Assembly (NCBI GenBank): GCA_016283195.1
Contig: JAEEML010000057.1
Location: forward strand, 1 to 40,229
Reading direction: 5' to 3'
Length of the DNA stretch: 40,229 nucleotides
Source: Deltaproteobacteria bacterium
GTDB lineage: Bacteria > JAEEML01
Notes under the pieces: model-generated
What the model was told of the DNA's origin: nothing
The model's input: the letters and a program-made list of their open reading frames with translations, nothing else
Databases searched by the model: none
Shown: one piece after another, positions 401 to 19,903 of the stretch
Numbering within the stretch: position 1 is the first letter of the stretch
Layout of the letters: each line of letters begins with the position of its first letter
Program-made: the position numbers and the translations under genes

Positions 401-435
401 TTTTTTACCACTTTATGTCAGTTTTTTACCACTTT
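401..435. repeat. 14-bp direct repeat TTTTTTACCACTTT x2 (21-bp period), candidate regulator binding site
   Basis: Identical copies at 401-414 and 422-435, immediately upstream of a putative -35 at 443. Confidence 0.6.
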
Positions 436-442
436 TAACCAA

Positions 443-471
443 TTAACTTTTCTTTGAAGCGTACTTAAACT
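443..471 (+). promoter_or_regulatory. Putative sigma70 promoter for the DUF4417 cassette
   Basis: TTAACT (443-448)-N17-TAAACT (466-471); transcription would start just before the hairpins at 482. Confidence 0.35.
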
Positions 472-481
472 GAAACCATAA

Positions 482-627
482 ACTTCTGCCCTGGCATTAG
501 CGTTGCCGGAGCAGAAGTCGGCCGCCGATATACGGAGACCCGACAAAATGTCCCCACATTTGTCACCTCCTTATATCGGCTTGGCCCACATAAATCAACC
601 GTATTGTGTGTGAAGCCATGGTGGCTT
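482..627 (+). ncRNA. Structured 5' leader or candidate ncRNA (three stem-loops)
   Basis: ACTTCTGC/GCAGAAGT stem 482-518; long stem 520-586 (GCCGATATA/TATATCGGC, GGAG/CTCC, GACAAAATGT/ACATTTGTC); AAGCCA/TGGCTT 613-627. Confidence 0.4.
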
Positions 628-660
628 GTCGTGCAATACCTATTTAATAAGGAGTGTTAT

Positions 661-1380
661 ATGAAGAAGATTCGTAACGTTGGAAAACGCAAGGGAATAC
701 GCGACATTTGGTGGAATGCCTTTATGGTAAAAGAATGCCAAAATTGGAGTGATAACGATATCCCAGAATGCCCAACAGCGAGAATTGAAATTCCGCCTGA
801 TTTATTAACATGGCCGGAGGCAGTTAGGCTCCACAACAGGATGAAAAAGGAGGATAGCTATTATAAAAGCAGTGCATACATTTGCTTTTATTGCGATGAT
901 TATCTCTTTGATGGAACAAGAGGTGTTTGGCATTGTTATTATAAAGCTATTGAAATTATAAAACATTTTGCCGGGATAATTACCCCTGATTTCAGCACTT
1001 ATAAGGATTTCCCGAGACCGCTAAAGGCGTGGAATACTTATAGAATGCGAGCTTTTGGCTTTTGGTGCACCAGTCAGGGCATTAACGTGATAAATAATGT
1101 CAGATGGAGTGCTGATACACTGGATATCTGCTTCAAGGGCATTCCCAAAGATAGTGTTATTTGTCTTGGTACTATTGCCAGTGGACTCAAAAAAACGGCC
1201 AACAGAGCAGAATATGAACAATACCTGAAAATTATGATTCAGGAGCTAAGACCGCGAATCATCCTAATATATGGCTCAGCTCGGTACAAATTTTTCAAAG
1301 AATTGCAAGCGAGTGGTATTGTCGTAAAATCATATCAGACAGCTAGAAACAGAAAATACTGTAGTCGGGGGTTGTTATGA
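661..1380 (+). CDS. DUF4417 domain-containing protein
   Basis: Motifs FYCDDYLF, IITPDFSTYKDFP, WNTYRMR, GINVINNVRW are typical of DUF4417. AAGGAG RBS at about 649-654 favours ATG 661 over TTG 604. Confidence 0.8.
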   Translation: MKKIRNVGKRKGIRDIWWNAFMVKECQNWSDNDIPECPTARIEIPPDLLTWPEAVRLHNRMKKEDSYYKSSAYICFYCDDYLFDGTRGVWHCYYKAIEIIKHFAGIITPDFSTYKDFPRPLKAWNTYRMRAFGFWCTSQGINVINNVRWSADTLDICFKGIPKDSVICLGTIASGLKKTANRAEYEQYLKIMIQELRPRIILIYGSARYKFFKELQASGIVVKSYQTARNRKYCSRGLL

Positions 1381-1805
1381 GTAAAGATACAAGCGGTTTG
1401 TTTCCTGGTAAAAATATGAAGGAGACATTAACGTCAGGCTATGTGTATAAGAGTGGTGACCATATAGCATATATTTATAAAAATCCAAGTAATGCAGTGG
1501 CACATATGATTGTGCCACGTTTGCCCAAGAACCCGCAAGTATTGGTAAAAAATGGCTGGGAAGAGACAACACCGCCTGAAATGAGTAATAACACTAACTC
1601 ACAAACTTTTCATGATCCAGTAACCAATCTTGACATAAGATTTGATAAAGGTGAAAAAGGTGTACCAGGATTTGGTGGAAAAGACCATTACCATATTGAG
1701 AACCCGGATTCGACTGGCAAACATGATAAGTATTTAGATAAAGATGGCAATCCCTGTGCGAAGAATTCAAAAGCATCGCATATATTGCCAACTGAGGAGG
1801 GATAA
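1377..1805 (+). CDS. Small polymorphic-toxin-like protein (Ntox37-like predicted RNase domain)
   Basis: C-terminal LPKNP..L...GW.ETT..RFDKG..G..G..GKDHYH..NP.ST...D.YLDKDGNP....SKASHI pattern; ATGA overlap with the DUF4417 stop. Confidence 0.65.
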   Translation: MSKDTSGLFPGKNMKETLTSGYVYKSGDHIAYIYKNPSNAVAHMIVPRLPKNPQVLVKNGWEETTPPEMSNNTNSQTFHDPVTNLDIRFDKGEKGVPGFGGKDHYHIENPDSTGKHDKYLDKDGNPCAKNSKASHILPTEEG

Positions 1806-1808
1806 CAA

Positions 1809-2159
1809 ATGCAACTTGAAGATTTTATTGCTAATTATAACTTACACGACAGCCTTTTGGAAGAATGCATTTATGCCAAAGAAGAAGGAAAGCTCACCCT
1901 GCTGATTGACTTCTGTTATTGGGCGCAAAGCGCTTATAAAGATGGTGAAGCCGAAACAGGCCTTGTAACTGTCATATTTTACGATGTTTCAGCATTTAAG
2001 CGAGATGACTACGAAATTAATAGTGATGCAATTATTGGTATCAGGCAGTCTATGCCCGGCCAAGTAGAATTGGTAGTTCAGTGTGATGATAGGAGCATCC
2101 ATCTGTTTTCCTTTTATACGTCAGCTGTCGAGATTTGCACTGATTCTTCAATGCGCTGA
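1809..2159 (+). CDS. Putative immunity protein
   Basis: 116-aa acidic ORF 3 nt after the toxin stop, GAGGAGG RBS, N-terminal LHD motif. Function inferred from position. Confidence 0.55.
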   Translation: MQLEDFIANYNLHDSLLEECIYAKEEGKLTLLIDFCYWAQSAYKDGEAETGLVTVIFYDVSAFKRDDYEINSDAIIGIRQSMPGQVELVVQCDDRSIHLFSFYTSAVEICTDSSMR

Positions 2160-2206
2160 CTTCTATTCTACTAACAATACATGTATCGTAATTACAACAA
2201 ATACTA

Positions 2207-2235
2207 TTGACAATATTGTAAAAAATAGTTATACT
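2207..2235 (+). promoter_or_regulatory. sigma70 promoter, near consensus
   Basis: TTGACA (2207-2212)-N17-TATACT (2230-2235). Confidence 0.7.
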
Positions 2236-2324
2236 AACCGAGTCGCCTGTTGATTATGTCAGCAAAGTGATAATAAAATCTAAGTGTTGTAGCTTATAAG
2301 CTGCTACAATATATGGAGGTTGGT

Positions 2325-3353
2325 ATGGAAAGTATTAGTAAAATTAAACTGAATTTAGATGATGATGCAACTTCTGATTGTAATGCGTTTAAGTCTGCTA
2401 AGCAGGAAATAGAACAGACTGCTAGTTCAATCAAAACGCTAATGGATTCTTCTGCACTACAGTGTAAAAGCCTACAACAACCAATATTTCAATCCACACA
2501 GTTGTTTGAAAAACAACTACAACCGCTATCTAACTCAATGCAGCAATTACAAAAATTATGCCGACCAATAGGATGTACACAGTTGTTTCTAAACCAACCA
2601 CAACTACTATCTAATTCAATGCAACAATTACAAAAACTGTATCAACAGGTAGAATCTATACAACAATTTCAAAAACAGCAGCAAGGTGATTTGAAGGCAT
2701 TGATGGATAAGGCTACTTTATGCAACTTCAGTGAAATAATAAATGCAGCAATTAAGCGTAGTGACAATATGCGGCGGGAATATAATATTCAAGATTACCT
2801 GCCGTATAATTTTTACGCATCCAGGCGTGATTCAGAGATGGAGGAACTAAAAAACGAGATATACGAACTGAAAAAGGAGTTGCAAGCAAAGAACCAACAA
2901 AATACGGAGATTGATTCAGATAAGCACTCTTCGCAAGAAAACATTGAACTGCCTTATTCAGAGCAGGTTAAATATGAATCAAAAATTAACGCACTGGAAA
3001 ACAAGGTTAATGAACTCACAAGCGAATTATATGCCAAGAATAAACTAATTGAGGAACTGAAGTTATCCAATCATTCTCCGCAGGAAAACCTTGTGCTGGC
3101 TCATTCAGAGCGATTTAGGCAAGATTATGACAAATTAATAGAACTTGGCTATATGTGTAAGGCAGATGGTGGTTACTTGATATGGCTAAAAAGCAAGCAG
3201 TCTTTAGCTGAGTATTTTGGGTATCAAAAAAAGCGTGCCAAGTGGAAAGATATAGAGAATCTTTTCCAAACGAAAAGGCTATCACATTTATTGTCTGTAA
3301 CAGATAATGTTTCAAAAGACTACCTGGAATTAAAAACACTGTTACAATTATAG
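2325..3353 (+). CDS. Hypothetical Gln-rich coiled-coil protein with internal duplications
   Basis: Long AT-rich ORF; GGAGG at 2315-2319 favours ATG 2325 over 2313; 27-aa and 49-aa internal repeats. Confidence 0.7.
   Translation: MESISKIKLNLDDDATSDCNAFKSAKQEIEQTASSIKTLMDSSALQCKSLQQPIFQSTQLFEKQLQPLSNSMQQLQKLCRPIGCTQLFLNQPQLLSNSMQQLQKLYQQVESIQQFQKQQQGDLKALMDKATLCNFSEIINAAIKRSDNMRREYNIQDYLPYNFYASRRDSEMEELKNEIYELKKELQAKNQQNTEIDSDKHSSQENIELPYSEQVKYESKINALENKVNELTSELYAKNKLIEELKLSNHSPQENLVLAHSERFRQDYDKLIELGYMCKADGGYLIWLKSKQSLAEYFGYQKKRAKWKDIENLFQTKRLSHLLSVTDNVSKDYLELKTLLQL
2496..2678 (+). repeat. 81-bp (27-aa) imperfect tandem repeat, 2 copies plus a partial third
   Basis: ACACAGTTGTTT starts at 2496 and 2577; TQLF..Q.Q.LSNSMQQLQKL occurs twice. 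Confidence 0.8.
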
Positions 3354-3356
3354 ACT

Positions 3357-3436
3357 CTGCCAATATAGTCACCTAAACTGTTTGGGTAGAAGATAACCAG
3401 AGATGCGGTTAATCGCGTCTCTATATTGTGTAGCAG
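3357..3436. other. Intergenic branched stem-loop structure
   Basis: Outer stem CAATATAG (3361-3368)/CTATATTG (3421-3428) plus CTGC/GCAG encloses two hairpins at 3371-3387 and 3401-3420. Confidence 0.4.
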
Positions 3437-3439
3437 GCT

Positions 3440-3778
3440 GTGAAGATGAAAACTTATATTCTTTTTGCTGACAAAGCGCTTTCTTTTGAAAAGGCTAAAA
3501 TTATGCTTCAAAGCAGTTTTACCTGCAATGAAACATTGCCCAATCGCCTGACCATAGAGCTTTTAAGGGATCACCTCTATATCGATTTTGATAATGACAT
3601 ACGCGCGGATTATGAGGATGAGAAAATCAGAAATGCCGACTATAACTTCTATGCCATCCTTTATCATTCTGAGAAATTGGCCAGAGCTGTTATCAGGGAA
3701 CTAAAGAATTTTATTATATATGTTGATGATGATGAAGGTACTATTGAAGAAATAAATAAGTTCTTTGATAAAGCATAA
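3440..3778 (+). CDS. Hypothetical acidic protein (possibly an orphan immunity-like protein)
   Basis: 112-aa ORF in the AT-rich segment; GTG 3440 or ATG 3446 start; no recognised motif. Confidence 0.6.
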   Translation: MKMKTYILFADKALSFEKAKIMLQSSFTCNETLPNRLTIELLRDHLYIDFDNDIRADYEDEKIRNADYNFYAILYHSEKLARAVIRELKNFIIYVDDDEGTIEEINKFFDKA

Positions 3779-3795
3779 GTGCTCTGAGTTTTGGT

Positions 3796-3811
3796 GTCCA
3801 CGGTCGTGGAC
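3796..3811. repeat. Short GC-rich palindrome (REP-like or terminator) between convergent genes
   Basis: GTCCACG-GT-CGTGGAC. Confidence 0.35.
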
Positions 3812-3847
3812 GGAGAGAGAAAATACACCGCTTGTCAGCTTGGGCTT

Positions 3848-4813
3848 TCATAGCGCGAGTTCCATAGTGCTCTCTGCTCCTCTGGGTGAAATTTTAATAA
3901 AACTCTTTTGATTGCCCTTAGTTACTATATCGCCCGGCTCCAGATGGCCCAAGATGAGCGGCGAGTCCGGGTTGTGCAGTTTATAATTTTCGCGGGCTTT
4001 TTGGTGATCTTTAGTGGCATAGCAATATTTGCAGCCGTTTAAACAGGTATTATAGGCGCTGATGTCGCGGCTTTCGATGCAGTGGCAGCCACTACGCGTG
4101 CCCCTATGCTTAATATCGCGGAAGCTAAGGCCATTGGCCCGGCCCAGCATCTCCAGAGTCAGGCAGCCGGACTTTTGAATGCCATAGCGGGAAAAATCGC
4201 CGTTTGTGCCGCAGGTTTGGATATGGAGCTTATGGCGTGCGGCTATTTGGCCCAATATTTGGGCCAGAGTGTCCATTTCGCTATCGGACATGGGGTAGAG
4301 CTCCGGCATATTGTTTTCCAGCTTTTTATACATCTCCACAAAGCTGAAAATTACCCGGCTCACATGGCCGGCAAGGCGCCCGGCCATATACTCAAAAGTC
4401 TCGCGGTGGGCCTTAATAGTGTATTTTTTCGTGAGCAACACCGGGTCATAGCGCCAGCAAAGGCGCTCGGCGCCCACCAGCTTTTCCAGCTCGAGAAGAG
4501 TGGCTATGCTTTCGTCGATAGATGGCACCAATGGCTCTATATCCGGCCCGTAAGCTGTGATGGTATAATGAAAAAATGTATTAAAACGGCTGGTTATCTC
4601 ATGAAGATGAGGCAGAATAGGCCGATAATTTTTGGAGCAGAATATGATGCAGTCGATTTTATCGGGGGTCAGCTCGTAGCGCGTGACTTTATTCGGGAAA
4701 AGGGGATTTCGCACCAGCACAAAGCCCTCGGCAAAACGCTTTAAAAGCCAGGGGGTGAAAAACTGAACTGTATCGGTGCGGGCGCCGGTATTCAATATCA
4801 TGATATTACTCAC
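3848..4813 (-). CDS. DUF1848 domain-containing protein (C-terminal CxxxCxxC, radical-SAM-like)
   Basis: MILNTG.RTD start (ATG 4801 possible), WRYDP, GCHC..SRDI.AYNTCLNGCKYCYA. Confidence 0.88.
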   Translation of the reverse strand: MSNIMILNTGARTDTVQFFTPWLLKRFAEGFVLVRNPLFPNKVTRYELTPDKIDCIIFCSKNYRPILPHLHEITSRFNTFFHYTITAYGPDIEPLVPSIDESIATLLELEKLVGAERLCWRYDPVLLTKKYTIKAHRETFEYMAGRLAGHVSRVIFSFVEMYKKLENNMPELYPMSDSEMDTLAQILGQIAARHKLHIQTCGTNGDFSRYGIQKSGCLTLEMLGRANGLSFRDIKHRGTRSGCHCIESRDISAYNTCLNGCKYCYATKDHQKARENYKLHNPDSPLILGHLEPGDIVTKGNQKSFIKISPRGAESTMELAL

Positions 4814-5127: not shown

Positions 5128-5637
5128 ATGGAAGGTACTTTTACGCCTCGAGAAGCGCTGGATGAACTGGAGGCTATAATACTAAAAATGTGCCCTGAGC
5201 AGGCAGTGAATGGGCTTACAGAACTGCCGCTTATTGCTTTAAGTGGCGGTATTCATTCGGCTTTAGTTGCGGCAGCCATAAATCGCCACCTGCCGTTGCG
5301 CTCCTTTACTGTGCTTTTGCCGGGCGAGGAGCCGCCCAAAGAGCTGGAAAAGATCGTGGAGTTTTTAGGCACCACGCATACCGAATATGTGCCGAGCAGT
5401 GCAGAGCTGGCACTTTGGAAAGAAGAATACCAAAAACAGGCCGCTAACAAGCTGTCTTTTAACGATTTCCTCCTTTTTGCGGCGGCTGAAAAGCTTGGCT
5501 ATGAGACTTTTTATAGCGGGCACCATGAGACCATACCGGTTTTAAGCGGTGTAAAGAGGCGCTCGCCGCTCGCGGAAATAGCTTTAAATCCGGCAGATTA
5601 TAAGGCTATGGCTGCGCGGTATTTGCCATGTCTCTAA
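5128..5637 (+). CDS. Short asparagine-synthase C-terminal-like (PP-loop) protein, degenerate
   Basis: LIALSGGIHSALVAA..PLRSFTV..A/V..LGTTHTE resembles the SGGLDS region of AsnB; only 169 aa; GGAG RBS. Confidence 0.55.
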   Translation: MEGTFTPREALDELEAIILKMCPEQAVNGLTELPLIALSGGIHSALVAAAINRHLPLRSFTVLLPGEEPPKELEKIVEFLGTTHTEYVPSSAELALWKEEYQKQAANKLSFNDFLLFAAAEKLGYETFYSGHHETIPVLSGVKRRSPLAEIALNPADYKAMAARYLPCL

Positions 5638-6347
5638 AAGTGAACGGTGATATTTACGAAGAGAGGCCGGTAGTGCGGCGGCTTTATTTGCCGGAACTCG
5701 GCCGGCTTGAAGCGGGGAAAGTGCTGAGCCCAAGCGGTGATGAGCTGCATTATGCCACAAGTGTTCTGCGCCTAAAAGATGGCGAATATATTGAGTTTTT
5801 TGATGGCGAAGGCCATTTTGCTGAGGGGCAGATTATAAAGAGCAATAAGCGCGAGTTACTTTTAGAACTTGGTGAAATAAATCATACTCCCCCCATAGCT
5901 GCCCCTTTTTTGGCTGTCGGCTATTGCAAGCGTTTTGATGAAGTATTGGAGAAGGCTACCGAGCTCGGAGCCGGCGCGATTATTCCCCTGAATTTGGAGC
6001 GCACGGCTATTAGCCTAAAGAGCGCCAAAGCAGACCATTTTGCCAAAGTGGTGCTGGCTGCCGCCCGCCAGTGCCGGCGCTACTATTTACCTGAAATTTG
6101 GCCGCTCACCACGCTAAGGGAACTTTTGCAGCAAATTCCCCGGCCGGCGGTGGCTCTGCCCCACGGGGCGCCCATGAGCAATTTGCCCGAAAAACCTAAA
6201 TGTCTGCTTATTGGGCCGGAGGGCGGTTTCAGCCCGGCCGAAGTGGCGCTCTTTAAAGAGCTTGAACTTCCGGCTTTTGGTCTTGGGCCGCATATTTTGC
6301 GCGTCGAAACGGCGGCGGCGGCCAGTTTGGCAGTTTATTGGCAGTAG
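5628..6347 (+). CDS. rsmE: 16S rRNA (uracil(1498)-N3)-methyltransferase
   Basis: HY..SVLRL, EKATELG, A.RQCRR, LIGPEGGFS, LGPHILRVETAA. Confidence 0.95.
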   Translation: MSLKVNGDIYEERPVVRRLYLPELGRLEAGKVLSPSGDELHYATSVLRLKDGEYIEFFDGEGHFAEGQIIKSNKRELLLELGEINHTPPIAAPFLAVGYCKRFDEVLEKATELGAGAIIPLNLERTAISLKSAKADHFAKVVLAAARQCRRYYLPEIWPLTTLRELLQQIPRPAVALPHGAPMSNLPEKPKCLLIGPEGGFSPAEVALFKELELPAFGLGPHILRVETAAAASLAVYWQ

Positions 6348-6355
6348 ATTAAAAA

Positions 6356-6535
6356 TCAGGTCGGCCCAATCATGCCGTAATTGGCTTCACATTCCCAATC
6401 AAGCTTGGATTCTGAAGGGTCACAGCCGCAAAGTGCCATATCCGAACAGAGTGGTTCGGTGTTAATTTGCGGTTTTACATAAGGTTTTTTATCCTTTAAA
6501 GCGGTGTCTTTATTTTTTTGCAGCTCGTTATTCAT
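6356..6535 (-). CDS. Putative RiPP precursor peptide, 59 aa (not in the ORF track): MNNELQKNKDTALKDKKPYVKPQINTEPLCSDMALCGCDPSESKLDWECEANYGMIGPT
   Basis: Manual translation of the minus strand; AGGAG RBS 6 nt before ATG, overlapping the upstream TAG; KKPYVKPQI leader motif; 4 Cys; PqqD gene in the same operon. Confidence 0.8.
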   Translation of the reverse strand: MNNELQKNKDTALKDKKPYVKPQINTEPLCSDMALCGCDPSESKLDWECEANYGMIGPT

Positions 6536-6544
6536 TTTAAACTC

Positions 6545-9500
6545 CTACCAATAAAGATGGAGAGCGCCGTTGCCGTTTATGGCTTCGCTGACAATAAAGG
6601 CACCCAGCGCATCGCCCATAAAATTATTGATATTAACTATTGTGCGGCCAAAGGCAAAAGCCTGATTTGTAGAAGCAGTGCTGCCATAGAGGAAAGAATC
6701 TATCTTAAAGGCAGGCGCTGAGTCTAATAAATCAATATCAGCAATCATAACTGTAGCTACAGTGGGCGCGCCAACCGCAATTTCGACACGGTTATCACCA
6801 TCTATATCGCCAAGAAGTGCCAGAGAGCCGCTATATTGACCAAAGCTGGTAAGAGTGGCGGCGGCAAAGTCTTTACCGGAGAGAGTGGCACAAGGATCTG
6901 CCAAAAGGCCATTTTCGCTGCCACAATATAATTGCACAGTGCCATTATAGCTTAGGAGCAAACTATCAGCTTGCTTGCCGCTCATTGTTCCCGGCAGAGT
7001 GACTAAATTGGTGACCATTGTACCAACTGTTATTTCCCTGATAGCTTGGGCAGGTGTGTAATTCTTTTCTGTTAGTGGCCCATGATAAATATGCAGGGCT
7101 TTTCTATCGGCATTAGTGGTGACCAAATCGGCTTTGCCGTCGCCGTTGAAATCGCCGGCAGCTACCAGGAAGCCGTAATTGCCTTCAGCGGTGATAGTGA
7201 CATCCGGCTGCTTTTCGCCGCTACCATCGGTGGTGATTATAACATCACCTGTGGGGAAGTTGCTGCCGCCGTAATAAATGAATACAGCTTTTCCGGTATT
7301 GCTGCCGATGATGAGATCACCCTGACCATCGCCGTTTAGATCGGCTATAGCTGTGGATACACCAAAGGCTGCAGCTGCTGCCGGTGAATCGTAGTAAAAA
7401 GCTGTTTGGGGCTCATAATTCGGCTGATAAACATTAGCTACTTGTTTGCCGGTAAAATTACTGGCCAAATCATAGCCGCTATAAACAAAGACGGCACCAT
7501 TAGCTATAGCGCCGTTATTAATGTTTGGCATGGAGTTAGAGCTGATAACCAAATCGGCATGATCATCACCAGTTAAATCGCCTTTATGTGCTCCGGAGAG
7601 TGGGGCGGCGGCAATGCTGTAGCCAAGATAAGGACTTCCCGGCGTGTTTTCGGTTAAATTAAAGGTATAGCTCGGGGCAGGTTCTCCGCCGTTTGCTATA
7701 TCTTGCGCTCCGGAGAGGAAGAGATCAACAGCGCCTTTGCCGTTAAGATAGCGCATTGCTGCGACGGCAAAATCATCGCGGCCGTCGTTATCAATATCGC
7801 CGACATTAACCATCGCCGAGCCATAAGAAGCCATGTTGTCTCTTGAGCTTAAATAAGCCGGAGAGGTGTTGTCGCGCCCTTCGCTCTGAGTGCCGTCCAG
7901 GTGGCTGTCTTCGGGCCAGGTGCGCAGCGGTAAGACGCGTTGGCCGTTGCTATCGCCTGTTTCCGAACTGTTTTGCGCACTGTCAAGCGCTTCCACTACA
8001 AAACAATAATCCTGATGCAAGGGGAGATTTTTGAAAGTATAACTTATGGTGCCGTTTTCATCGGCGCTAAGAGAGAGACTCTCCAGGTGGGAGATGTTGC
8101 TTTCATCCAGAGTGCCGCTAAGATCGGCACAGGCTGCCAAATAGCCGAGAGCACTATAGCCCAGCGGGCGATAGCCTACTTTGTACATAGTTATGTCATT
8201 AGCTATGGCACTGTTTTCACTTTGCCAGGCGATGGTGACATGGCCATGGCGGCGTGAGCAGGTCTCTTCTTTGCATATAGAGGAGCAAATATCGGGCTCC
8301 AGATATTTGGCGCTATTGTCATCCGGTGGGTTAGTGCTCTCTCCCAAACAAATAAGCGGCTTAATAGGAGCCGGCGGCATGGTATCAACCAGAGCAATAA
8401 TAGTTTCAGCTACAGCTTTCGCGGAGATATTACCAGCTTTGTCGGTGGCCGAGAGGCTTAAAGAGTGTTTTTCGCCGGCCGGCAGACTTGGTACTCCTAA
8501 ATTGGTAAATATAGCCAGACAGTGATGATTATTGTCACAAGCTGTTGTGCGGGTGGCAGCGCCGCTAAGAGGATAATCAGGCTGATCGGTCGAAATGGTA
8601 ACCAGCTGATTTTCTTCGATATTAGATACCTCAGCCACTAGCGCTGTGCGGCTTGTGTTAAGGCCGTTCTCATGGATGCCGTCGCCACGCAGCCAGTCTA
8701 AAGAGGCATTCCACAGCGCTTCGCCGTTTATGCCGCTTTCGTTATAGGGAACATTAAATTCTTTAAGACCGCCCAGAATGTCGTTGCCGACCCGGCGCCA
8801 GGTTATCGTCGGAGCATCTACATCGGCTACTAAACCGTTAATAATGCGGTGGCCGATTAAAGAGCCGCCTTTGGTTAGCGATATATCCAGAGAATTGTAA
8901 ATAGCTGTTTCTTGCGAAAGCTCAAGATTTACCCCGCTTATCAGTACTGTGTTGTTGCTGCTAACTGTGCCGCTGACCTCGCGCTTACCGGCTGGGCTTT
9001 CAATGGAAAGGGTGACATTAGCTCCGCTGAGATCGCTGCCATCGAGATTATCTACCGCTATTGTAAGGGCGGTATTTAAGAAATCCCCGGCTGGAGTTCC
9101 GTCGAGATTGCCAAAATAGCTGCCTTCTTCCACCAGGAGGCCGGTTAAGGGCTCATTGGTCTCTTTATCGGTGCGCTCCACCAAAATAAGTGCGCTGGAG
9201 ACATTATGCAAAGTTAAATAGAGCGGGTTACTGTAAGTAATATTGCCGCTGGCATCGGTGGCTTTTAATTTTACAGTGCGCTCATCGCCGGGGAGGAAAC
9301 CGGGGCCGATACCGGCTATGGCGGTAGCCAGGTTGCTGTAAGCGGTATCGAGGTCGGCAGCAGAATCAAGAGAGCTGTTGAAGACGATATCGGTAATGCC
9401 GTCCATTTCACTGATTAAAGAAAGAGTGCAGGGGCAACCGGCGACATTAACCAGCAAATCATTGCTGGAGGTGTCAAGGTAACCATAGCCGAGCGGGCGG

Positions 9501-12500
9501 TTGTCACCGCCGGTGACAATATTAGCTGTGCAGGAACCGCTTGCCTGACAGTTTAAGCTGGTGCCGTTTTGCTCTAAAACCAGGTTAGCTGTTGGGCCAA
9601 GATAGTCGATATGATATTCTGTTACGGCGGAATGCACCTCATTTTGGCCGATATCAGTCATCGAAACACTAATTGTATTTATGGTTTCGTTAAGTGTATC
9701 TTTTTGCAAGAAGGGCACATCAAAAGTTAAAATAGCCTCTTTGCCGCTGGCGGTTAGTGTGCGCTCTATTTGTGCTACATCGCTGCCGCTCGTGCGCGAA
9801 AGCACAACTTTACTGCCATTTAAAGCAGAACCGTCGCTGATGATAACTTGCACCGGCATCATGAGGACTTTTTGCCCTTCATAAGTGGCAATGGTGCCAT
9901 CCTGGGCGGTGTAGAGGCTCTTGGCCGGAGTGGAAAGCTCTACGCTAGGCAAGCTGGAATCAACGTAAACGGTATAAGATGATAATTCATTGATTGCATT
10001 TTTGTTACCGTTTTCATCTTCCACTACCACCTGGAGATGATGGGTGCCTTCAGCCAAATTTAGCGTCAATTTTGATTGGACATCATTAGAAACGGAAGTG
10101 CTGCCGACCAGACTATTGGGGCTGGGATTATCGCTATATACGCGGAGCATGGTTTTTTGGGAAAGCCCGCTGACTTCGGCAGCGGCACTCACGGCAAAGC
10201 CGCTTGCTCCGGCTATGCCTTCCTTTAATGTGGAATTAAAGACCAAAAGGTTTTCCGTATCGTTCTGCGTTTTATTGTTTATAAATTCAAATTTTTTAAG
10301 CTCCGGCGGCTCGGTATCCACTATAATGGAACGCATATCAGAGGCAGTAGAAATATTTAAATCACTGTTTTCTATGGCGACATATATCTCTTGAGAGCCT
10401 TCCGGCAAGGTGGCATCGGTAAAGAAAACGGTACTGCGCCTTAGAGAGCCATTATTGGTAGAGGTGGCTAAAACATAGCCGCTGCCTACCGGGCAGAGCT
10501 CGCTGGCGGTACCTTTAAGCGATGAACAGAGGTAGGCCGGTGAGCCCTTAGGATAACCAAAAGCTATAGCGGTAAATTCGGTTTGATAACCGGGGATATT
10601 CTTTTTGAGATCGGTGGCGGCATTGAATTTGGCATTGATAGCCGGAGCGGTGATGCTAATGGCATTGAGCTCGGTGTTAATGGAGAAGGAATAAGAGAGC
10701 TCGCTCTTATTGCCAAAAGAGTCGCTGACTACAAAAAGCGCTGTATAACTGCCGCCGTCAAATGGAACATCATTGAAGGCATATTCGAAAATGCCATTGC
10801 CGATAGCTTTGGGCAAAGCTACTAAAACAGGATCCATATCGGGCACATTAAGCGGAGGTTCAAAAGATAAGTAACCGATATCATTATTAATATCTCCCTG
10901 TACCCGGTAAGAGAATTTGAGCGCTATATCATCGGTTGTCATGGTGACATCATCTTGGACGCCAAATTCGCTACGCGTCGGATCCGGTTGGGCCTGGCGG
11001 ATAACGGGTGCTTTGGTGTTGGCGTTTAAAGTGATACTGAGCGGATTACTGCGGTTGCCGGCGCAATCTAAAAGGTAAGCATTTAAGACAGTTTGGCCTT
11101 CGGTGGCTTCGGCCGGCAAAACGGTAACATCGTAGAAAGTGAGCGAACCGCCGTCGCCAAGTGGCAGAGTAGCGCGGAAGAGCTCTTCGCCGCCGGTAAA
11201 GGAGCTGATAAGTTCCACGCTCATGTTATATAAATTGGGCTCGGTAGTGTCGATGGGCATTTCCAGGGTAACATTTTGTTGCAAACCCTCTTCGTCGCTA
11301 TTGGTATCTATGCTGCTTTGACCAAGAAGAGCGCCATCTTGAGGGGCAATAAAGCGGGCCGAACCGGCGATAGTCGGCGGCGTATTATCAATGAATATTC
11401 TTATTGTTTTGGAGACGGCCACATAGCCGGAATCATTTTCGCAGGTGACATATATGTCGTTTTGTCCGGTGGCCAAATTTCCTACTGCTTCAGCGCTAAA
11501 AGATAGAGCGCCGTCGCTGGAGGAGGGATTTACGGCTAAGGGATTTTTGGAGAAAGCGGTGGCCTCGGCGGCTTTACTCCAGAGGTGGCAATTATAAGAG
11601 CTTATCGATTTGCTGACCGGATCTATAGCGCCGCTTATGACGAGATTATCACCGGCGGCGCAACTACCGCCGCCGTTAAAGATGGTGATATTGTGGCTAA
11701 AGGAATCGATTTTTAGCTCAATAATTTCCGCGCTTTGATTGCCGGCTTCATCGGTGGCTATAACCTTGAGTTGATAGCGACCAAAGGGGAAAATCATTTT
11801 TCCAAAATCAAAATTTAAAATATCGCCGTTATTTATGAGTTCTTTTTGGGCAACAGGCGTAAGTGTGCCGCCTTGGGGATTAGTGAGTAGATCAATAGTT
11901 AACTTAGAGCCGACAAATTCGCCGCTTTGCCGGGGATCGATGCTGACGACAACAGGAATGGCAAGGCCCTCGTCATTCGGCAAGAGCTCCGGATGGAGAG
12001 CGCTTTCAAATAAGGCACTATCTAAGGGACTGGCCAAAGAAAAGATCGGCGCTATGGAATCAATATAAAATTCAATGGCTTTTTGCGCGATGTTGCCGGC
12101 GGCATCTTTAGCCGAAACAGTTAGTACATAAGCTCCGTCAGCAAGGTTTAAGGTGGCAGAAACAGTACTATTTTCGCTGGTAAAGGTGCTTAACGAATTT
12201 TCTGTTATGTGGCTCTCTTTGCGGCGCACCTCCAGAGTTACTTCCGTGCCGGCCTCTATGCCGCTTAATGTGGCGCTAAAATTCAGAATATTATCATTAA
12301 TATATGCGCCGTGGGCCGGGCTTAAATCACTAAAGACCGGGGCTTGGCCGTCGGCCAACAAAGCTAGAGGAATGGAAGAACTTTTTTGCTCATCATTGAC
12401 TACAGCCTGGATATAACGAGTTACAAGGTCATTTTCGCCGGCATAGGTCAGAGAGACATCTTTGAATGTGTAAAGGCGCATTTTACCTTGGACAGTGCTT

Positions 12501-13423
12501 AGAGCTTCGCGGTAGGATATGACTTTCCCGTTTTCAAGATCAGTTAATGAATCCGCTACATTAAGAACAATATCGGCTGCCGGTGAGCAATTTGTTTCCA
12601 CGGTCACGGCTATTTGTAAACCGGCCAAATCGCTATTTGTATCATCGCGGGCCAGGTAGGTATTGCTCTCACTTAGATTGATTTTTAGGCGGCATTTACC
12701 GGTGTCAACATTTAAAATAGTGCATAATTCCTGGTGATTAAGGCAATCTTCTTGGCCTAAAGAAGGCAAATTTTCCCGCAGGCCGTAGAGAAGGATATTT
12801 TCACCTTCTATGAGGGTTACATCGTGATATGTTGCTTTGCCGCTTGCTTCTATTGTATTGTTTTTAATAATTTTGTCATTGACTGAAAGATAAACAGCTT
12901 GTTCGCTGGCGGCATCATCGCCCTGACAAACAACGGTGATATCCTGTTGCAAATAGGGCATTTCACTGTTGCTGTCTTCGGTGATGGTGTAGCCGGGCTG
13001 GGGCCTAGCCAGGCGACAGAAAGTGCTGTTTTCATCGGCAAAAACAGTAAAATTGGCGCTGGTTCCTTCATAGAAAATGGTAAGTTCATTGCGGCCGGAA
13101 GCCAAGGTGTAATCGGGAAATTCAACCACGCCGTTATATAAAGTAGCTTTGCTTAAAACGGAACCGGGGGCTTTATTTTTCAGGCTGATTTTATTGCCGC
13201 TCTCAATGCCGCCGATTCTGGCGGTGATAGTGGTTTGAATATGGTCTTTTTCAAGGTTTTCATCTTGAAGAAAAGTGAGAGTAGAGCCATCGGCCGGCGT
13301 GACGAGGCCGATAGCGGTTTCACGCTCTGGCAAAGGGTCCGGAGTTTTGCGGCATGAATTAATAAAAAAAGAGGAAACTAATAATAAAAAAGCAAAAGAT
13401 TTTATGCTGTTATTGTAATTCAC
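6545..13423 (-). CDS. Giant surface lipoprotein with Ig-like repeats, an FN3-like domain and C-terminal FG-GAP (integrin-alpha-like) repeats
   Basis: Signal peptide ending FINSC; many D-x-A/S-G-N Ig motifs; VTIAW..Y.V.Y..YTFKNL..DYCFVVEALD; GDIDNDGRDD, GDLTGDDHAD, ADLNGDGQGD, GDFNGDGKAD, GDIDGDNRVE; GAAAGGA RBS before GTG. Confidence 0.85.
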   Translation of the reverse strand: MNYNNSIKSFAFLLLVSSFFINSCRKTPDPLPERETAIGLVTPADGSTLTFLQDENLEKDHIQTTITARIGGIESGNKISLKNKAPGSVLSKATLYNGVVEFPDYTLASGRNELTIFYEGTSANFTVFADENSTFCRLARPQPGYTITEDSNSEMPYLQQDITVVCQGDDAASEQAVYLSVNDKIIKNNTIEASGKATYHDVTLIEGENILLYGLRENLPSLGQEDCLNHQELCTILNVDTGKCRLKINLSESNTYLARDDTNSDLAGLQIAVTVETNCSPAADIVLNVADSLTDLENGKVISYREALSTVQGKMRLYTFKDVSLTYAGENDLVTRYIQAVVNDEQKSSSIPLALLADGQAPVFSDLSPAHGAYINDNILNFSATLSGIEAGTEVTLEVRRKESHITENSLSTFTSENSTVSATLNLADGAYVLTVSAKDAAGNIAQKAIEFYIDSIAPIFSLASPLDSALFESALHPELLPNDEGLAIPVVVSIDPRQSGEFVGSKLTIDLLTNPQGGTLTPVAQKELINNGDILNFDFGKMIFPFGRYQLKVIATDEAGNQSAEIIELKIDSFSHNITIFNGGGSCAAGDNLVISGAIDPVSKSISSYNCHLWSKAAEATAFSKNPLAVNPSSSDGALSFSAEAVGNLATGQNDIYVTCENDSGYVAVSKTIRIFIDNTPPTIAGSARFIAPQDGALLGQSSIDTNSDEEGLQQNVTLEMPIDTTEPNLYNMSVELISSFTGGEELFRATLPLGDGGSLTFYDVTVLPAEATEGQTVLNAYLLDCAGNRSNPLSITLNANTKAPVIRQAQPDPTRSEFGVQDDVTMTTDDIALKFSYRVQGDINNDIGYLSFEPPLNVPDMDPVLVALPKAIGNGIFEYAFNDVPFDGGSYTALFVVSDSFGNKSELSYSFSINTELNAISITAPAINAKFNAATDLKKNIPGYQTEFTAIAFGYPKGSPAYLCSSLKGTASELCPVGSGYVLATSTNNGSLRRSTVFFTDATLPEGSQEIYVAIENSDLNISTASDMRSIIVDTEPPELKKFEFINNKTQNDTENLLVFNSTLKEGIAGASGFAVSAAAEVSGLSQKTMLRVYSDNPSPNSLVGSTSVSNDVQSKLTLNLAEGTHHLQVVVEDENGNKNAINELSSYTVYVDSSLPSVELSTPAKSLYTAQDGTIATYEGQKVLMMPVQVIISDGSALNGSKVVLSRTSGSDVAQIERTLTASGKEAILTFDVPFLQKDTLNETINTISVSMTDIGQNEVHSAVTEYHIDYLGPTANLVLEQNGTSLNCQASGSCTANIVTGGDNRPLGYGYLDTSSNDLLVNVAGCPCTLSLISEMDGITDIVFNSSLDSAADLDTAYSNLATAIAGIGPGFLPGDERTVKLKATDASGNITYSNPLYLTLHNVSSALILVERTDKETNEPLTGLLVEEGSYFGNLDGTPAGDFLNTALTIAVDNLDGSDLSGANVTLSIESPAGKREVSGTVSSNNTVLISGVNLELSQETAIYNSLDISLTKGGSLIGHRIINGLVADVDAPTITWRRVGNDILGGLKEFNVPYNESGINGEALWNASLDWLRGDGIHENGLNTSRTALVAEVSNIEENQLVTISTDQPDYPLSGAATRTTACDNNHHCLAIFTNLGVPSLPAGEKHSLSLSATDKAGNISAKAVAETIIALVDTMPPAPIKPLICLGESTNPPDDNSAKYLEPDICSSICKEETCSRRHGHVTIAWQSENSAIANDITMYKVGYRPLGYSALGYLAACADLSGTLDESNISHLESLSLSADENGTISYTFKNLPLHQDYCFVVEALDSAQNSSETGDSNGQRVLPLRTWPEDSHLDGTQSEGRDNTSPAYLSSRDNMASYGSAMVNVGDIDNDGRDDFAVAAMRYLNGKGAVDLFLSGAQDIANGGEPAPSYTFNLTENTPGSPYLGYSIAAAPLSGAHKGDLTGDDHADLVISSNSMPNINNGAIANGAVFVYSGYDLASNFTGKQVANVYQPNYEPQTAFYYDSPAAAAAFGVSTAIADLNGDGQGDLIIGSNTGKAVFIYYGGSNFPTGDVIITTDGSGEKQPDVTITAEGNYGFLVAAGDFNGDGKADLVTTNADRKALHIYHGPLTEKNYTPAQAIREITVGTMVTNLVTLPGTMSGKQADSLLLSYNGTVQLYCGSENGLLADPCATLSGKDFAAATLTSFGQYSGSLALLGDIDGDNRVEIAVGAPTVATVMIADIDLLDSAPAFKIDSFLYGSTASTNQAFAFGRTIVNINNFMGDALGAFIVSEAINGNGALHLYW

Positions 13424-13436
13424 AATAAAATCCTTT

Positions 13437-13727
13437 CTAAGCGCCCCGGGGCTCGGTAATCAGTTTTTTGGCCTTTAGATTGGCCAAAAATTCACTTATA
13501 TCATTTTGGGCCTCAGCTTCATCGACATCATAAGCAGCAGTTAGAGCCCGGGCCAGTTTATCCGGTGATTGCGGCTCTTTAGCTAAAAGATTCCATAAAA
13601 AAGAAGCTGTATCGTTAAGCAGATGAACTTCGCCGCCGCTGATACCGATGATGATGGTTTCGTCACCAACGGTGCGGAAAGCGATGCGTTTATCCGGTTG
13701 CCAGGTTTTGTTGCTCTTATTGCTCAT
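13437..13727 (-). CDS. PqqD-family protein (stand-alone RiPP recognition element)
   Basis: 96 aa; FRTVGDETIII, LNDTASFLWNLL, L...YDVDEAEAQNDISEFLANLKAKKLI. Confidence 0.9.
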   Translation of the reverse strand: MSNKSNKTWQPDKRIAFRTVGDETIIIGISGGEVHLLNDTASFLWNLLAKEPQSPDKLARALTAAYDVDEAEAQNDISEFLANLKAKKLITEPRGA

Positions 13728-13747
13728 AGCACCCCCAACTCTATTTG

Positions 13748-13776
13748 ATTTTACGCATAGTGAGCGTTTTGGGCAA
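13748..13776 (-). promoter_or_regulatory. Putative sigma70 promoter of the PqqD-lipoprotein-peptide operon
   Basis: Minus strand TTGCCC-N17-TAAAAT. Confidence 0.55.
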
Positions 13777-15863: not shown

Positions 15864-16616
15864 TTATTTACATTCCCAATCATCTGGATCACGGGGATTG
15901 GTCTTGGTGGCCACCATGGATGTACAGCCTTCCTGAAAGAGAAAAACGGCCCCGGCCGGCCAGTGCCCGGAAATTACGGCTGCCCCCAAAGAGCTAGTCG
16001 CTACCGTTTCGCTGGCCCCATCGGCAGAAGCAGCAACTTCGGCTAAGCCGGCTCCGCCATCATCACTATTGCCATCGCTACTGCCATCACTACTGCCATC
16101 ACTATTGGCGTCACTGTTAGCATCACTGTTAGCATCACTGTTAGCATCACTGTTAGCATCACTGTTAGCATCACTGTTAGCATCGCTGTTGGCGTCGCTG
16201 TTAGCATCGCTGTTGGCATCATTTGACCCATCAGTCCACTTTATATAACTGCATATTTTGGCGGGATTTTGAAACTCGCTGTTAACTACCAAAGCGAGCT
16301 CACCGTTAATTGCTAAATCAAATTTTGCCAAAGGCAAATCTATCTTTACCTGACCTGGTGATAGTTCTATGGCCTGGCAGGCGCCGAATTGACAAAGCGC
16401 ATAGCTCTCCTTAGGTTCCTCATCACTAATTTGATCCAAAGTGATATAGCCGGTAGCGGCGGTTGAGGGCTTAACAGCCGAGAGATAGTGGGAGCAAAGG
16501 GCATTTTTTTCGAGAGCTACATCGTGCTGCGCCCGGCCGATACCATGGCCGTCTTCATCTTTGCAACCAATTATGCCGATAGTGAATAAAAGCGGTAAAA
16601 AGTATTTTAATCTCAT
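15864..16616 (-). CDS. Hypothetical lipoprotein with (DANS)n low-complexity repeat
   Basis: Signal peptide ending IIGC; internal 12-bp tandem array. Confidence 0.75.
   Translation of the reverse strand: MRLKYFLPLLFTIGIIGCKDEDGHGIGRAQHDVALEKNALCSHYLSAVKPSTAATGYITLDQISDEEPKESYALCQFGACQAIELSPGQVKIDLPLAKFDLAINGELALVVNSEFQNPAKICSYIKWTDGSNDANSDANSDANSDANSDANSDANSDANSDANSDANSDANSDGSSDGSSDGNSDDGGAGLAEVAASADGASETVATSSLGAAVISGHWPAGAVFLFQEGCTSMVATKTNPRDPDDWECK
16065..16232 (-). repeat. 12-bp coding tandem repeat, 14 units (10 DANS plus DGSS x2, DGNS, DGSN)
   Basis: Six identical ACTGTTAGCATC units at 16113-16184 flanked by variants. Confidence 0.95.
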
Positions 16617-19880: not shown

Positions 19881-19903
19881 GCGAAAAGTATGGCTCTGCT
19901 CTG

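What the first reader, a model, noticed from the sequence alone, without database searches (positions are those of the whole stretch)
6356..13776. Three-gene operon: PqqD/RRE, giant integrin-like surface lipoprotein, precursor peptide, with no maturase
Seen: a candidate promoter (TTGCCC-N17-TAAAAT, 13748-13776), then PqqD, a 13-nt gap, the 2292-aa Ig/FN3/FG-GAP lipoprotein, a 9-nt gap and the peptide, all on one strand. RRE and precursor sandwich a 6.9-kb surface-protein gene where RiPP clusters normally have a modifying enzyme, peptidase or transporter. Inference: possibly an undescribed system coupling a modified peptide to a surface adhesin (display, ligand, cofactor or signal), with radical-SAM, peptidase or nucleotidyltransferase partners encoded elsewhere. 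It could instead be the remnant of a fragmented cassette.
Basis: partly seen in the sequence, partly recalled or inferred. Interest (0 to 1): 0.88.

Follow-up and report, generated by a model that had tools for sequence, protein, structure and literature searches.

The report
Split-up peptide-modification system around adhesin gene
A small peptide gene and its helper protein, parts of a recently described family of phosphorylated bacterial peptides, flank a giant integrin-like surface protein gene, while the modifying enzymes lie elsewhere in the genome.

Summary
The three minus-strand genes are real: a PqqD-type RiPP recognition element (RRE; 13727-13437), a 2292-aa Ig/FG-GAP lipoprotein (13423-6545) and a 59-aa peptide (6535-6356), with gaps of 13 and 9 nt.

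The peptide is a true precursor. It has a 76%-identical homologue elsewhere. Its leader (KKPYVKPQI...AL) matches small ORFs beside distant relatives of this PqqD.

Those relatives sit in cassettes of HprK-like kinase, RRE, archaeal-type signal peptidase (SpI/S24-like) and PF14907 nucleotidyltransferase. In non-Bacillota, a radical SAM/SPASM enzyme is often present too. This is essentially the LPP family (linear polyphosphorylated peptides; Popov et al. 2026, PMC13381572).

"No maturase" is therefore explained. In this genome the enzymes are dispersed: HprK-like plus rSAM/SPASM on contig C182, the only S24/SpI-like peptidase on C28, and the only PF14907 gene on C76.

The giant adhesin gene is not found next to any of 32 distant PqqD loci, and close relatives could not be inspected. 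Coupling of peptide and adhesin stays unproven.

Verdict: a new variant (dispersed, non-Bacillota, Cys-rich core) of a known kind. Interest is moderate.

The parts
13437..13727 (-). PqqD-family RiPP recognition element (LppB / lasso-B1-like), 96 aa
   Evidence: PF05402 at E 4.7e-18. It is the only PqqD match in the genome. A family profile hits TbiB1 (2.6e-13), PbaB1 9x90 (1.9e-10), TfuB1 (1.9e-9) and LppB 9x8z (8e-9). Homologues of 73% and 65% identity exist.
6545..13423 (-). 2292-aa probable surface lipoprotein: Ig-like (Big_13 etc.) domains, then a C-terminal integrin-alpha-like FG-GAP beta-propeller with five DxDxDG-like loops
   Evidence: No enzyme domain was found in six overlapping segments. 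GC and GC3 are like the genome's. Collinear homologues of about 26% identity, P0008 and P0009, also have lipoprotein-like N-termini. No paralogue in the own genome.
6356..6535 (-). 59-aa precursor peptide. Leader about residues 1-33 with Y19-V-K-P22-Q-I24. Cys-rich core ...ALCGCDPSESKLDWECEANYGMIGPT ending in Thr
   Evidence: Homologue P0006 is 76% identical overall: 29 of 32 identical in residues 19-50 against 10 of 18 in residues 1-18. The leader aligns with small ORFs in cassettes of distant PqqD relatives. It is the only convincing such ORF of 21 motif matches in the genome.
6536..6547 (-). Giant/peptide junction: TAG stop overlapped by AGGAG, then 6 nt, then ATG
   Evidence: Bridged by an independent contig of run X1 (6307-6648, one difference, which I read as synonymous).
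13424..13439 (-). PqqD/giant junction: TAG stop, AAAGGA, 7 nt, GTG
13748..13776 (-).
   Evidence: Found at 9 of 12 matches, but such sites are not enriched over shuffles (14 against 13.2). It is not evidence of a promoter.

Best explanation
The PqqD protein and the 59-aa ORF are the recognition element and precursor of an LPP-like RiPP system. LPPs are linear polyphosphorylated peptides and close kin of phosphorylated lasso peptides. In this genome the enzymes of the system are scattered over other loci.

Inferred pathway:
1. The RRE binds the leader's YVKPQI motif as an added beta-strand.
2. It presents the precursor to an HprK-like kinase (C182), which phosphorylates a Ser or Thr.
3. The neighbouring radical SAM/SPASM enzyme (C182) probably cross-links one or more of the core cysteines.
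4. A PF14907 nucleotidyltransferase (C76) may decorate the phosphate.
5. The archaeal-type signal-peptidase-like protease (C28) removes the leader.

The giant integrin-like lipoprotein gene lies between RRE and precursor and is almost certainly co-transcribed with them. Nothing found here ties it mechanistically to the peptide. It is best read as a lineage-specific operon neighbour.

Shown: gene identities, leader homology, and the presence and intactness of partners elsewhere.
Inferred: binding, all chemistry, action in trans, co-transcription.
For: 1. RRE identity. PF05402 at E 4.7e-18. The nearest solved proteins are lasso/LPP RREs.

2. Precursor identity.
- It has a conserved homologue whose leader motif and core are nearly invariant.
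- The leader aligns with small ORFs next to distant PqqD relatives: L041, L005, L044, L047, L056, L054.
- The motif fits the [Y/W]xxPx[L/V/I] rule, and Tyr and Pro were shown to be needed for LppB binding (PMC13381572, sections 6 and 8 read).

3. Predicted binding. The RRE-plus-peptide co-fold gave 'weak support'.
- ipSAE 0.54 against a best control of 0.02.
- The mark was reached by 116 of 157 solved complexes and 2 of 215 mismatched pairs.
- At 0.60 or under it was reached by only 18 of those 157, and by both mismatches that passed.
- Runs agree in at least 92% of contacts. Partner pLDDT is at least 53.
- Like complexes are solved, so the pass may be from memory.

4. Cassette context of relatives.
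- Of 16 genome-contig loci, a radical SAM gene is adjacent in 8 and fused to PqqD in 1 (L042).
- An S24/SpI-like peptidase is present in 8, and an HprK-like protein in at least 9.
- PF14907 and ABC exporter genes occur in L044 and L047.
- The same gene types lie in 5-6 of 16 further loci.

5. Partners in the own genome.
- C182 carries a 292-aa HprK-like ORF directly upstream of an rSAM/SPASM gene. This rSAM is the best match to the rSAMs of five of six cassettes used as queries (27% identity, E down to 6e-32; the sixth, L056, matched C70 best).
- The HprK-like family profile hits HPr kinase structures at E 3.7e-7.
- The only PF00717 match is a 152-aa protein on C28. It keeps the GxSM, HR and GD catalytic motifs shared with cassette peptidases.
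- The only PF14907 match is on C76, next to a polysaccharide gene.

6. Published LPP core set: SpI, discrete RRE, HprK-like kinase, PF14907 NTase and exporter, often inside polysaccharide loci (PMC13381572, sections 6, 7 and 12, and supplement file 1).
Against: - No enzyme of the system lies in the 40-kb window, whereas RiPP genes are normally clustered. Action in trans is assumed, not shown.
- The leader lacks the Bacillota LPP 'FET' end (CSD here), and the core has no Ser at position 3.
- The RRE profile scores TbiB1 higher than LppB. TIGR04353 is missed by 0.7 bit.
- rSAM/SPASM enzymes also have non-RiPP roles, and the C182 enzyme reaches no NCBIfam cut-off.
- The tight 13-nt and 9-nt spacing argues that the giant gene is more than a passenger.
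- The paper describes LPPs as restricted to Bacillota, while this organism has Lpx, BamA and TamB genes.
Confidence: 0.6

Rival explanations
1. Functional coupling. The matured peptide works with the giant integrin-like lipoprotein, as a ligand or plug of the beta-propeller, a surface-displayed or attached peptide, or a signal that controls adhesion. The operon exists to make them in fixed proportion.
For: - The gaps are 13 and 9 nt, each with its own ribosome-binding site, and the giant's stop overlaps the peptide's AGGAG.
- The giant gene has native codon usage, so it is not a fresh insertion.
- LPP and related clusters sit in capsule or polysaccharide loci, and their role is unknown, possibly biofilm (PMC13381572, discussion read). 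The Bdellovibrionota cassettes here also lie beside polysaccharide genes.
- In L041 the order is RRE-rSAM-SpI-precursor, so in the window the giant occupies the enzymes' place.
Against: - The giant protein matches none of 32 loci (292 kb) around distant PqqD relatives.
- A query of its C-terminal 603 aa found nothing in 296 Fibrobacterota genomes, and its homologue P0009 found nothing in 301 Bdellovibrionota genomes.
- No orthologue of 1260 aa or more above 26% identity was found, although a relative with 65-76% identical RRE and peptide exists.
- This genome has several other giant surface lipoproteins (earlier notes, untested), so a chance neighbour of this kind is not unlikely.
Confidence: 0.2
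2. Decaying remnant. RRE and precursor are leftovers of a cassette whose enzymes were lost, and the genes found on other contigs serve other purposes.
For: - No enzyme lies within 40 kb.
- The NTase on C76 sits in a sugar-biosynthesis context.
- The rSAM and SpI-like proteins are below curated family cut-offs.
Against: - Both ORFs are intact with good ribosome-binding sites.
- The peptide's motif and core are 29 of 32 identical in a relative whose N-terminal region has diverged to 10 of 18. That pattern points to purifying selection.
- The HprK-like/rSAM pair keeps the cassette's own adjacency.
- The SpI-like protein keeps its catalytic motifs.
Confidence: 0.1
3. A lasso peptide system. The RRE is a B1 protein and the peptide becomes a class-I-like lasso, with core Cys1 and Glu7.
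For: - The best NCBIfam hits of the RRE are lasso PqqD chaperones (37.7 and 36.7 bits).
- The leader spacing from Y19 to the conserved A34-L35 equals the lasso Y...T-x spacing as I recall it. That spacing is recalled, not taken from any call.
- A core starting at C36 would have Glu at position 7.
Against: - There is no lasso cyclase. PF00733 gives only three short PP-loop matches of 35 bits or less in the whole genome.
- PF13471 (B2 protease) is below its cut-off.
- The NCBIfam scores are far below their cut-offs of 80 and 70.
- Family members L044, L047 and L005 have no acidic residue at core positions 7-9.
Confidence: 0.02
4. Assembly chimera. The PqqD and giant genes were joined wrongly at the A/T-rich stretch around 13354-13398.
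For: - No listed contig of four other runs bridges 13423-13437.
- Many unrelated contigs match the low-complexity stretch 13354-13398.
Against: - The junction has a clean stop, ribosome-binding site and start layout.
- Composition is alike on both sides.
- The other junction is confirmed independently.
- The low-complexity stretch lies inside the giant gene's signal peptide, not at the junction.
Confidence: 0.03

Closest known systems
LPP (linear polyphosphorylated peptide) RiPP clusters, lppA-K-B-S-D-N of Paenibacillus alginolyticus (Popov et al., Nat Commun 2026, PMC13381572; sections 6, 7, 8, 11, 12, 35 and supplement search read)
   Same: - A discrete PqqD-type RRE.
- A precursor with an N-terminal YxxPx[V/I] motif.
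- The genome holds an HprK-like kinase, an archaeal-type SpI-like serine peptidase with Ser/His/Asp motifs, and a PF14907 nucleotidyltransferase.
- Association with cell-envelope or polysaccharide genes.
- No cyclase.
   Different: - The genes are dispersed over at least four contigs instead of one cluster.
- The organism is a diderm outside Bacillota, while the paper calls LPPs restricted to Bacillota.
- The leader lacks the FET end.
- The core is Cys-rich.
- A radical SAM/SPASM enzyme is paired with the kinase here and in many non-Bacillota relatives. It is not a core LPP gene.
- A 6.9-kb adhesin gene lies between RRE and precursor.
Phosphorylated lasso peptides (paeninodin and pseudomycoidin: PadeK/PsmK, PsmN; PMC6993621, passages read; Bsf cluster, PMC10368454, passages read)
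   Same: - A B1-like RRE and a YxxP-type leader.
- HprK-family kinase and 'uncharacterised NTP transferase' tailoring at a C-terminal Ser.
- The peptide here ends in Thr, and relatives L005, L044 and L047 end in Ser.
   Different: No macrolactam cyclase or B2 protease in the genome. Leader removal is presumably by an SpI-like serine peptidase.
Radical SAM/SPASM RiPP systems with a separate or fused PqqD RRE (PqqA/D/E; sacti- and ranthipeptides). NCBIfam's in-silico HPr-rel-A (TIGR04352/TIGR04353) and SynChlorMet (TIGR04249-51) cassettes
   Same: - The PqqD scores 34.3 bits on TIGR04353 (cut-off 35).
- The HprK-like protein of L044 hits ScmC and HprK_rel_A.
- rSAM/SPASM is adjacent in relatives and fused in one (L042).
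- The core is Cys-rich.
   Different: - All matches are below curated cut-offs.
- The rSAM is not linked to the RRE in this genome.
- No paper on these in-silico systems was found.
Integrin alpha-type FG-GAP beta-propellers, and bacterial giant Ig/FG-GAP adhesins
   Same: - FG-GAP repeats with Ca-loop-like DxDxDG motifs.
- PDB hits to integrin alpha-IIb, alpha-V and alpha-6.
- A long Ig-like stalk and a lipoprotein-like N-terminus.
   Different: - Only repeat-level similarity: 9720 library hits, with the best non-self at 33% identity over parts.
- No beta-subunit.
- No known link to a RiPP.

Membership tests
LPP RiPP family (PMC13381572) | Discrete RRE (LppB-like, PqqD fold) | tested here: met
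   PF05402 at E 4.7e-18. The family profile hits LppB 9x8z at E 8e-9, PbaB1 9x90 at 1.9e-10 and TbiB1 at 2.6e-13.
LPP RiPP family (PMC13381572) | Precursor with N-terminal YxxPxVLxHQxIxFETxxS-type leader | tested here: inconclusive
   YVKPQI is present and conserved. The FET end is not: the window has CSD, while relatives L041 and L005 have IFET and IIET. There is no Ser at the third residue after either candidate cleavage site.
LPP RiPP family (PMC13381572) | Archaeal-type SpI-like leader peptidase encoded with the RRE | tested here: not met
   None among the window ORFs scanned. The genome's only PF00717 match is on contig C28 (36.7 bits; TIGR02228 37.7 bits, below its cut-off of 51.85). It keeps the Ser, His and Asp motifs.
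LPP RiPP family (PMC13381572) | HprK-like kinase encoded with the RRE | tested here: not met
   Not in the window. A 292-aa HprK-like ORF lies on C182 (blastp 7e-9 to the L044 protein; family profile against HPr kinase structures E 3.7e-7).
LPP RiPP family (PMC13381572) | PF14907 nucleotidyltransferase and MsbA-like exporter in the cluster | tested here: not met
   The only PF14907 match is on C76 (101.8 bits). The exporter was not searched for.
LPP RiPP family (PMC13381572) | Polyphosphorylation of a core Ser, and RRE-dependent leader cleavage | not testable with these tools
   Needs expression and mass spectrometry.
Lasso peptides | Asparagine-synthase-like macrolactam cyclase (C) and B2 cysteine protease | tested here: not met
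   PF00733 gives three short PP-loop matches of 35.4 bits or less. PF13471 gives 25.6 bits, below its cut-off of 26.
Radical SAM/SPASM-modified RiPPs | rSAM/SPASM maturase linked to RRE and precursor | tested here: not met
   Not in the window. Three complete or nearly complete rSAM/SPASM genes lie on C103, C70 and C182, plus a truncated rSAM on C106. Adjacent or fused in 9 of 16 relatives' loci.
HPr-rel-A system PqqD (NCBIfam TIGR04353) | Score at or above the curated cut-off | tested here: not met
   34.3 bits against a cut-off of 35.
Integrin-like FG-GAP beta-propeller protein | Several FG-GAP repeats with Ca-binding-type loops | tested here: met
   FG-GAP at E 8.2e-21 with 4 stretches. Five DxDxDG-like loops. 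Integrin alpha-IIb at E 4.2e-7. The fold itself was not modelled because the structure jobs were not accepted.
Bacterial lipoprotein | Signal peptide ending in a lipobox Cys | tested here: inconclusive
   N-terminus VNYNNSIKSFAFLLLVSSFFINSC. The lipobox is atypical (INSC). Homologues P0008 and P0009 also have a Cys after a hydrophobic stretch. No dedicated predictor was available.

The most novel reading that the evidence does not exclude
The operon is a first functional clue for the LPP-like peptide family, whose role is unknown. The phosphorylated and cross-linked peptide, matured in trans by dispersed enzymes, would be made together with an integrin-like adhesin because it binds or decorates that adhesin's beta-propeller. 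That would make it a bacterial 'integrin plus ribosomal peptide ligand' pair controlling adhesion or biofilm.
Probability: 0.15. Interest if true: 0.8.

Novelty: new variant of a known kind. Interest (0 to 1): 0.42.

Why it matters
- It resolves the apparent paradox of an RRE and precursor with no maturase. The system belongs to a family whose enzymes are a kinase and a signal-peptidase-like protease, and in this genome they are encoded in trans.
- Together with the relatives' loci, it suggests that LPP-like cassettes occur well outside Bacillota. The named records include Bdellovibrionota, Fibrobacterota, Bacteroidota and Hydrogenedentes. These cassettes often carry an added radical SAM/SPASM enzyme and Cys-containing cores, which the 2026 paper does not describe.
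- A RiPP system working from four loci would caution against cluster-only genome mining.
- If the peptide really acts with the adhesin, it would give the family its first biological role.

Tried and rejected
- Close relatives' context. P0005 (on a 14.8-kb contig) and P0006 (on a 3.1-kb contig) could not be fetched. The genome-contig scan gave only relatives of 26-46% identity.
- The genome is the only one of its phylum among the held genomes, so no kin synteny was possible.
- Blind searches for the giant found nothing: its C-terminal 603 aa in 296 Fibrobacterota genomes, and its homologue P0009 in 301 Bdellovibrionota genomes. Both answers were empty with no positive control.
- No RNA holder was listed among sequencing runs, so co-transcription could not be examined.
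- ESM Atlas. For the peptide the best score was 0.86 to unnamed clusters, a lead only. For the propeller only generic FG-GAP clusters appeared.
- The representative-library search gave generic FG-GAP repeat hits only.
- NCBIfam and Pfam gave nothing for the peptide or its 7 aligned relatives.
- Structure prediction of giant residues 1151-1700 and 1690-2292 was requested three times and never accepted. A hidden enzyme domain in 1151-1700 is therefore excluded only by Pfam and PDB sequence search (best E 0.36).
- The 169-aa Asn_synthase-like ORF beside the locus was considered as a lasso-cyclase remnant and rejected. It has only a degenerate PP-loop, SGGIHS.
- A QHNDH-like reading (a small cross-linked subunit bound to a propeller) was considered from memory only and not pursued.
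- Rfam and tRNA scans of the window were empty.
Full report
**Observation**

On the minus strand lie three ORFs:
- a 96-aa ORF at 13727-13437;
- a 2292-aa ORF at 13423-6545 with a GTG start;
- a 59-aa ORF at 6535-6356.

They are separated by 13 and 9 nt. Each gene has a purine-rich stretch at ribosome-binding distance. The giant gene's TAG stop is overlapped by the AGGAG that precedes the peptide's ATG.

The first protein is a PqqD domain (PF05402, E 4.7e-18). The second carries Big_13 and other Ig-like matches and, at its C-terminus, FG-GAP repeats (E 8.2e-21). It has five DxDxDG-like loops, and its last 603 residues hit integrin alpha-IIb, alpha-V and alpha-6 propellers (best E 4.2e-7).

A contig from another run covers 6307-6648 and so confirms the giant/peptide junction. 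No listed contig bridges the PqqD/giant junction (26 further pieces were not shown). No RNA run was listed.

**Surroundings**

Upstream on the same strand are an LpxG/YaeI-like metallophosphoesterase (59-nt gap) and DapA. Downstream and convergent are RsmE and a 169-aa PP-loop-like ORF.

Further along the window lie LpxI, LpxA-like, LpxD, Skp, BamA, TamB, a sulfatase-family protein and HrpB. This is a diderm's envelope-biogenesis neighbourhood.

No radical SAM, peptidase, kinase, nucleotidyltransferase or exporter is among the window ORFs scanned.

**Is the small ORF a real precursor?**

- It has a 58-aa homologue (P0006, 76% identical). Residues 19-50, covering the motif and core, are 29 of 32 identical, against 10 of 18 for residues 1-18.
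- The PqqD has homologues at 73% and 65% identity.
- The genome holds one PqqD match. A motif scan returned 21 small ORFs, of which only the window's peptide was convincing.
- In loci around distant relatives of this PqqD (26-46% identity), I found small ORFs with the same leader, K-K-x-Y-x-K-P-x-I/V ... A-L, followed by Cys-containing cores. These are L041, L005, L044, L047, L056 and L054.
- A co-fold of RRE and peptide gave weak support: ipSAE 0.54 against a best control of 0.02. The mark was reached by 116 of 157 solved complexes and 2 of 215 mismatches, but at 0.60 or under by only 18 of the 157 and by both mismatches that passed. Contact agreement was at least 92% and partner pLDDT at least 53. 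Similar complexes are solved, so this may be recall.

**What system do the relatives belong to?**

Among 16 named loci:
- a radical SAM gene is adjacent in 8 and fused to PqqD in 1 (L042); a SPASM domain was detected in 5 of these 9;
- an S24/SpI-like peptidase of about 150 aa is present in 8;
- a P-loop protein of about 300 aa is present in at least 9;
- PF14907 nucleotidyltransferase and ABC exporter genes occur in L044 and L047.

Five or six of 16 further loci show the same gene types.

A profile of the 300-aa family hits HPr kinase/phosphorylase structures best (E 3.7e-7). A profile of the PqqD family hits the lasso RREs TbiB1, PbaB1 (9x90) and TfuB1, and LppB (9x8z).

This gene set is that of the LPP family described in 2026 (PMC13381572; sections 6, 7, 8, 11, 12 and 35 read, supplements searched). 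The paper reports:
- a core set of SpI-like archaeal-type signal peptidase LppS, discrete RRE LppB, HprK-like kinase LppK, PF14907 transferase LppN and an exporter;
- precursors bearing YxxPxVLxHQxIxFETxxS;
- frequent location inside capsule loci;
- LppK polyphosphorylates Ser3 of the core;
- LppS needs LppB to cut the leader;
- Tyr and Pro of the motif are needed for binding;
- the biological role is unknown, and the family is said to be restricted to Bacillota.

Radical SAM is not among its core domains. In the supplementary domain matrix that I searched, it appears only as a column heading. I did not read the counts.

**Where are the enzymes in this genome?**

- Contig C182 has a 292-aa ORF with the HprK-like P-loop segment. 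It matches four cassette proteins (E 1.6e-4 to 8.6e-8; blastp 7e-9). It lies directly upstream of an rSAM/SPASM gene, which is the best genomic match to the rSAMs of five of the six cassettes used as queries (27% identity, E down to 6e-32; L056's matched C70 best).
- The rSAM domain starts too near the N-terminus for a fused RRE.
- The only PF00717 match is a 152-aa protein on C28. Its best NCBIfam hit is archaeal-type signal peptidase I, and it keeps the GxSM, HR and GD motifs shared with cassette peptidases.
- The only PF14907 match is on C76, beside a polysaccharide-synthesis gene.
- Other rSAM/SPASM genes lie on C103 (beside a PF09826 beta-propeller protein) and C70. A truncated rSAM lies on C106.
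- There is no lasso cyclase or B2 protease.

The missing maturase is explained by a dispersed cassette.

**The giant protein**

- Six overlapping segments show only Ig-like and FG-GAP families.
- Residues 1151-1700 have no Pfam or PDB sequence match.
- Structure jobs were never accepted.
- Its GC, GC3 and codon usage are typical of the genome.
- It has no paralogue in the genome.
- It has two collinear homologues of about 26% identity, each with a lipoprotein-like N-terminus.
- Otherwise it has only repeat-level relatives: 9720 hits at E of 1e-3 or less, with the best non-self at 33%.
- It matches nothing in the 32 PqqD loci, 292 kb in total.
- Its C-terminal part was not found in 296 Fibrobacterota genomes, nor its homologue P0009 in 301 Bdellovibrionota genomes. 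Both are negative searches without a positive control.
- No orthologue of 1260 aa or more was found for the lineage that holds the 65-76% relatives. It may be fragmented there or absent.

The linkage of RRE, giant and precursor is thus so far seen in this lineage only. The crucial close relatives could not be examined.

**Mechanism proposed (inferred)**

1. The RRE binds Y19-x-x-P22-x-I24 as an added beta-strand.
2. It presents the precursor to the kinase and to the SpI-like peptidase.
3. The rSAM/SPASM partner probably links core cysteines.
4. The PF14907 enzyme may add a sugar to the phosphate, as PsmN does in pseudomycoidin (PMC6993621, passages read).

The peptide ends in Thr, and three relatives end in Ser. 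This recalls the C-terminal Ser phosphorylated in paeninodin-type lasso peptides (same paper). LppK, however, targets Ser3, so the phosphorylation site here is open. The leader/core boundary is only roughly placed, between D32 and L35.

**Verdict**

This is a new variant of a known kind:
- an LPP-like system that is dispersed rather than clustered;
- in a non-Bacillota diderm;
- with a Cys-rich core and a likely rSAM partner;
- whose RRE and precursor flank an integrin-like adhesin gene.

Coupling to the adhesin is possible (about 0.15-0.2) but has no support beyond operon structure. Literature searches for FG-GAP with PqqD found only an incidental border gene of a lasso cluster. Searches for HPr-rel-A and SynChlorMet found nothing.

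Noticed in passing
L041-L056, L004, L005, L010, L016, L018 (loci of other genomes): LPP-like cassettes (HprK-like, PqqD RRE, SpI/S24-like peptidase, PF14907, ABC exporter) occur in records named Bdellovibrionota, Fibrobacterota, Bacteroidota, Hydrogenedentes and Clostridia. Many carry a radical SAM/SPASM gene and Cys-containing precursors. L042 has a PqqD-rSAM/SPASM fusion (466 aa). The 2026 paper calls LPPs restricted to Bacillota and does not list rSAM as core.
   Followed up: partly
G000 contig C103, about 9371-12637 (L063:5371-8637): A radical SAM/SPASM gene (TIGR04133-like, 289 bits, below its cut-off of 425) sits directly after a 713-aa PF09826 beta-propeller protein. This is another pairing of an rSAM with a propeller protein in this genome.
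   Followed up: no
window 1-4000: The first 4 kb have 35-40% GC against about 48-49% for the rest of the window and the genome. They encode DUF4417, several ORFs without family, and next to them DUF1848. This may be a foreign island.
   Followed up: no
window 5128-5637 (+): A 169-aa ORF has a degenerate PP-loop (SGGIHS) matching only positions 23-85 of Asn_synthase. It overlaps the start of RsmE by 10 nt. It is not a lasso cyclase, and its function is unknown.
   Followed up: partly
window 15864-16616 (-): A 250-aa ORF has no Pfam family, but its residues 133-187 resemble the Ser-Asp repeat regions of MSCRAMM adhesins (E about 5e-6, far below the cut-offs).
   Followed up: no
window 18349-21408 (-): An Omp85/POTRA-like 483-aa protein, a 293-aa ORF without family, and a TPR protein resembling SycD/LcrH type III chaperones (70.5 bits, below its cut-off of 104.8).
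   Followed up: no
window 23504-36457 (-): A long envelope-biogenesis gene row: LpxI, LpxA-like, LpxD, Skp/OmpH, an 839-aa Ig-like protein, BamA with 6 POTRA matches (1025 aa) and TamB (1330 aa).
   Followed up: no
whole genome G000: G000 is the only genome of its phylum among the held species representatives. Earlier notes of this scan disagree on its affiliation (Treponema against Fibrobacter).
   Followed up: partly
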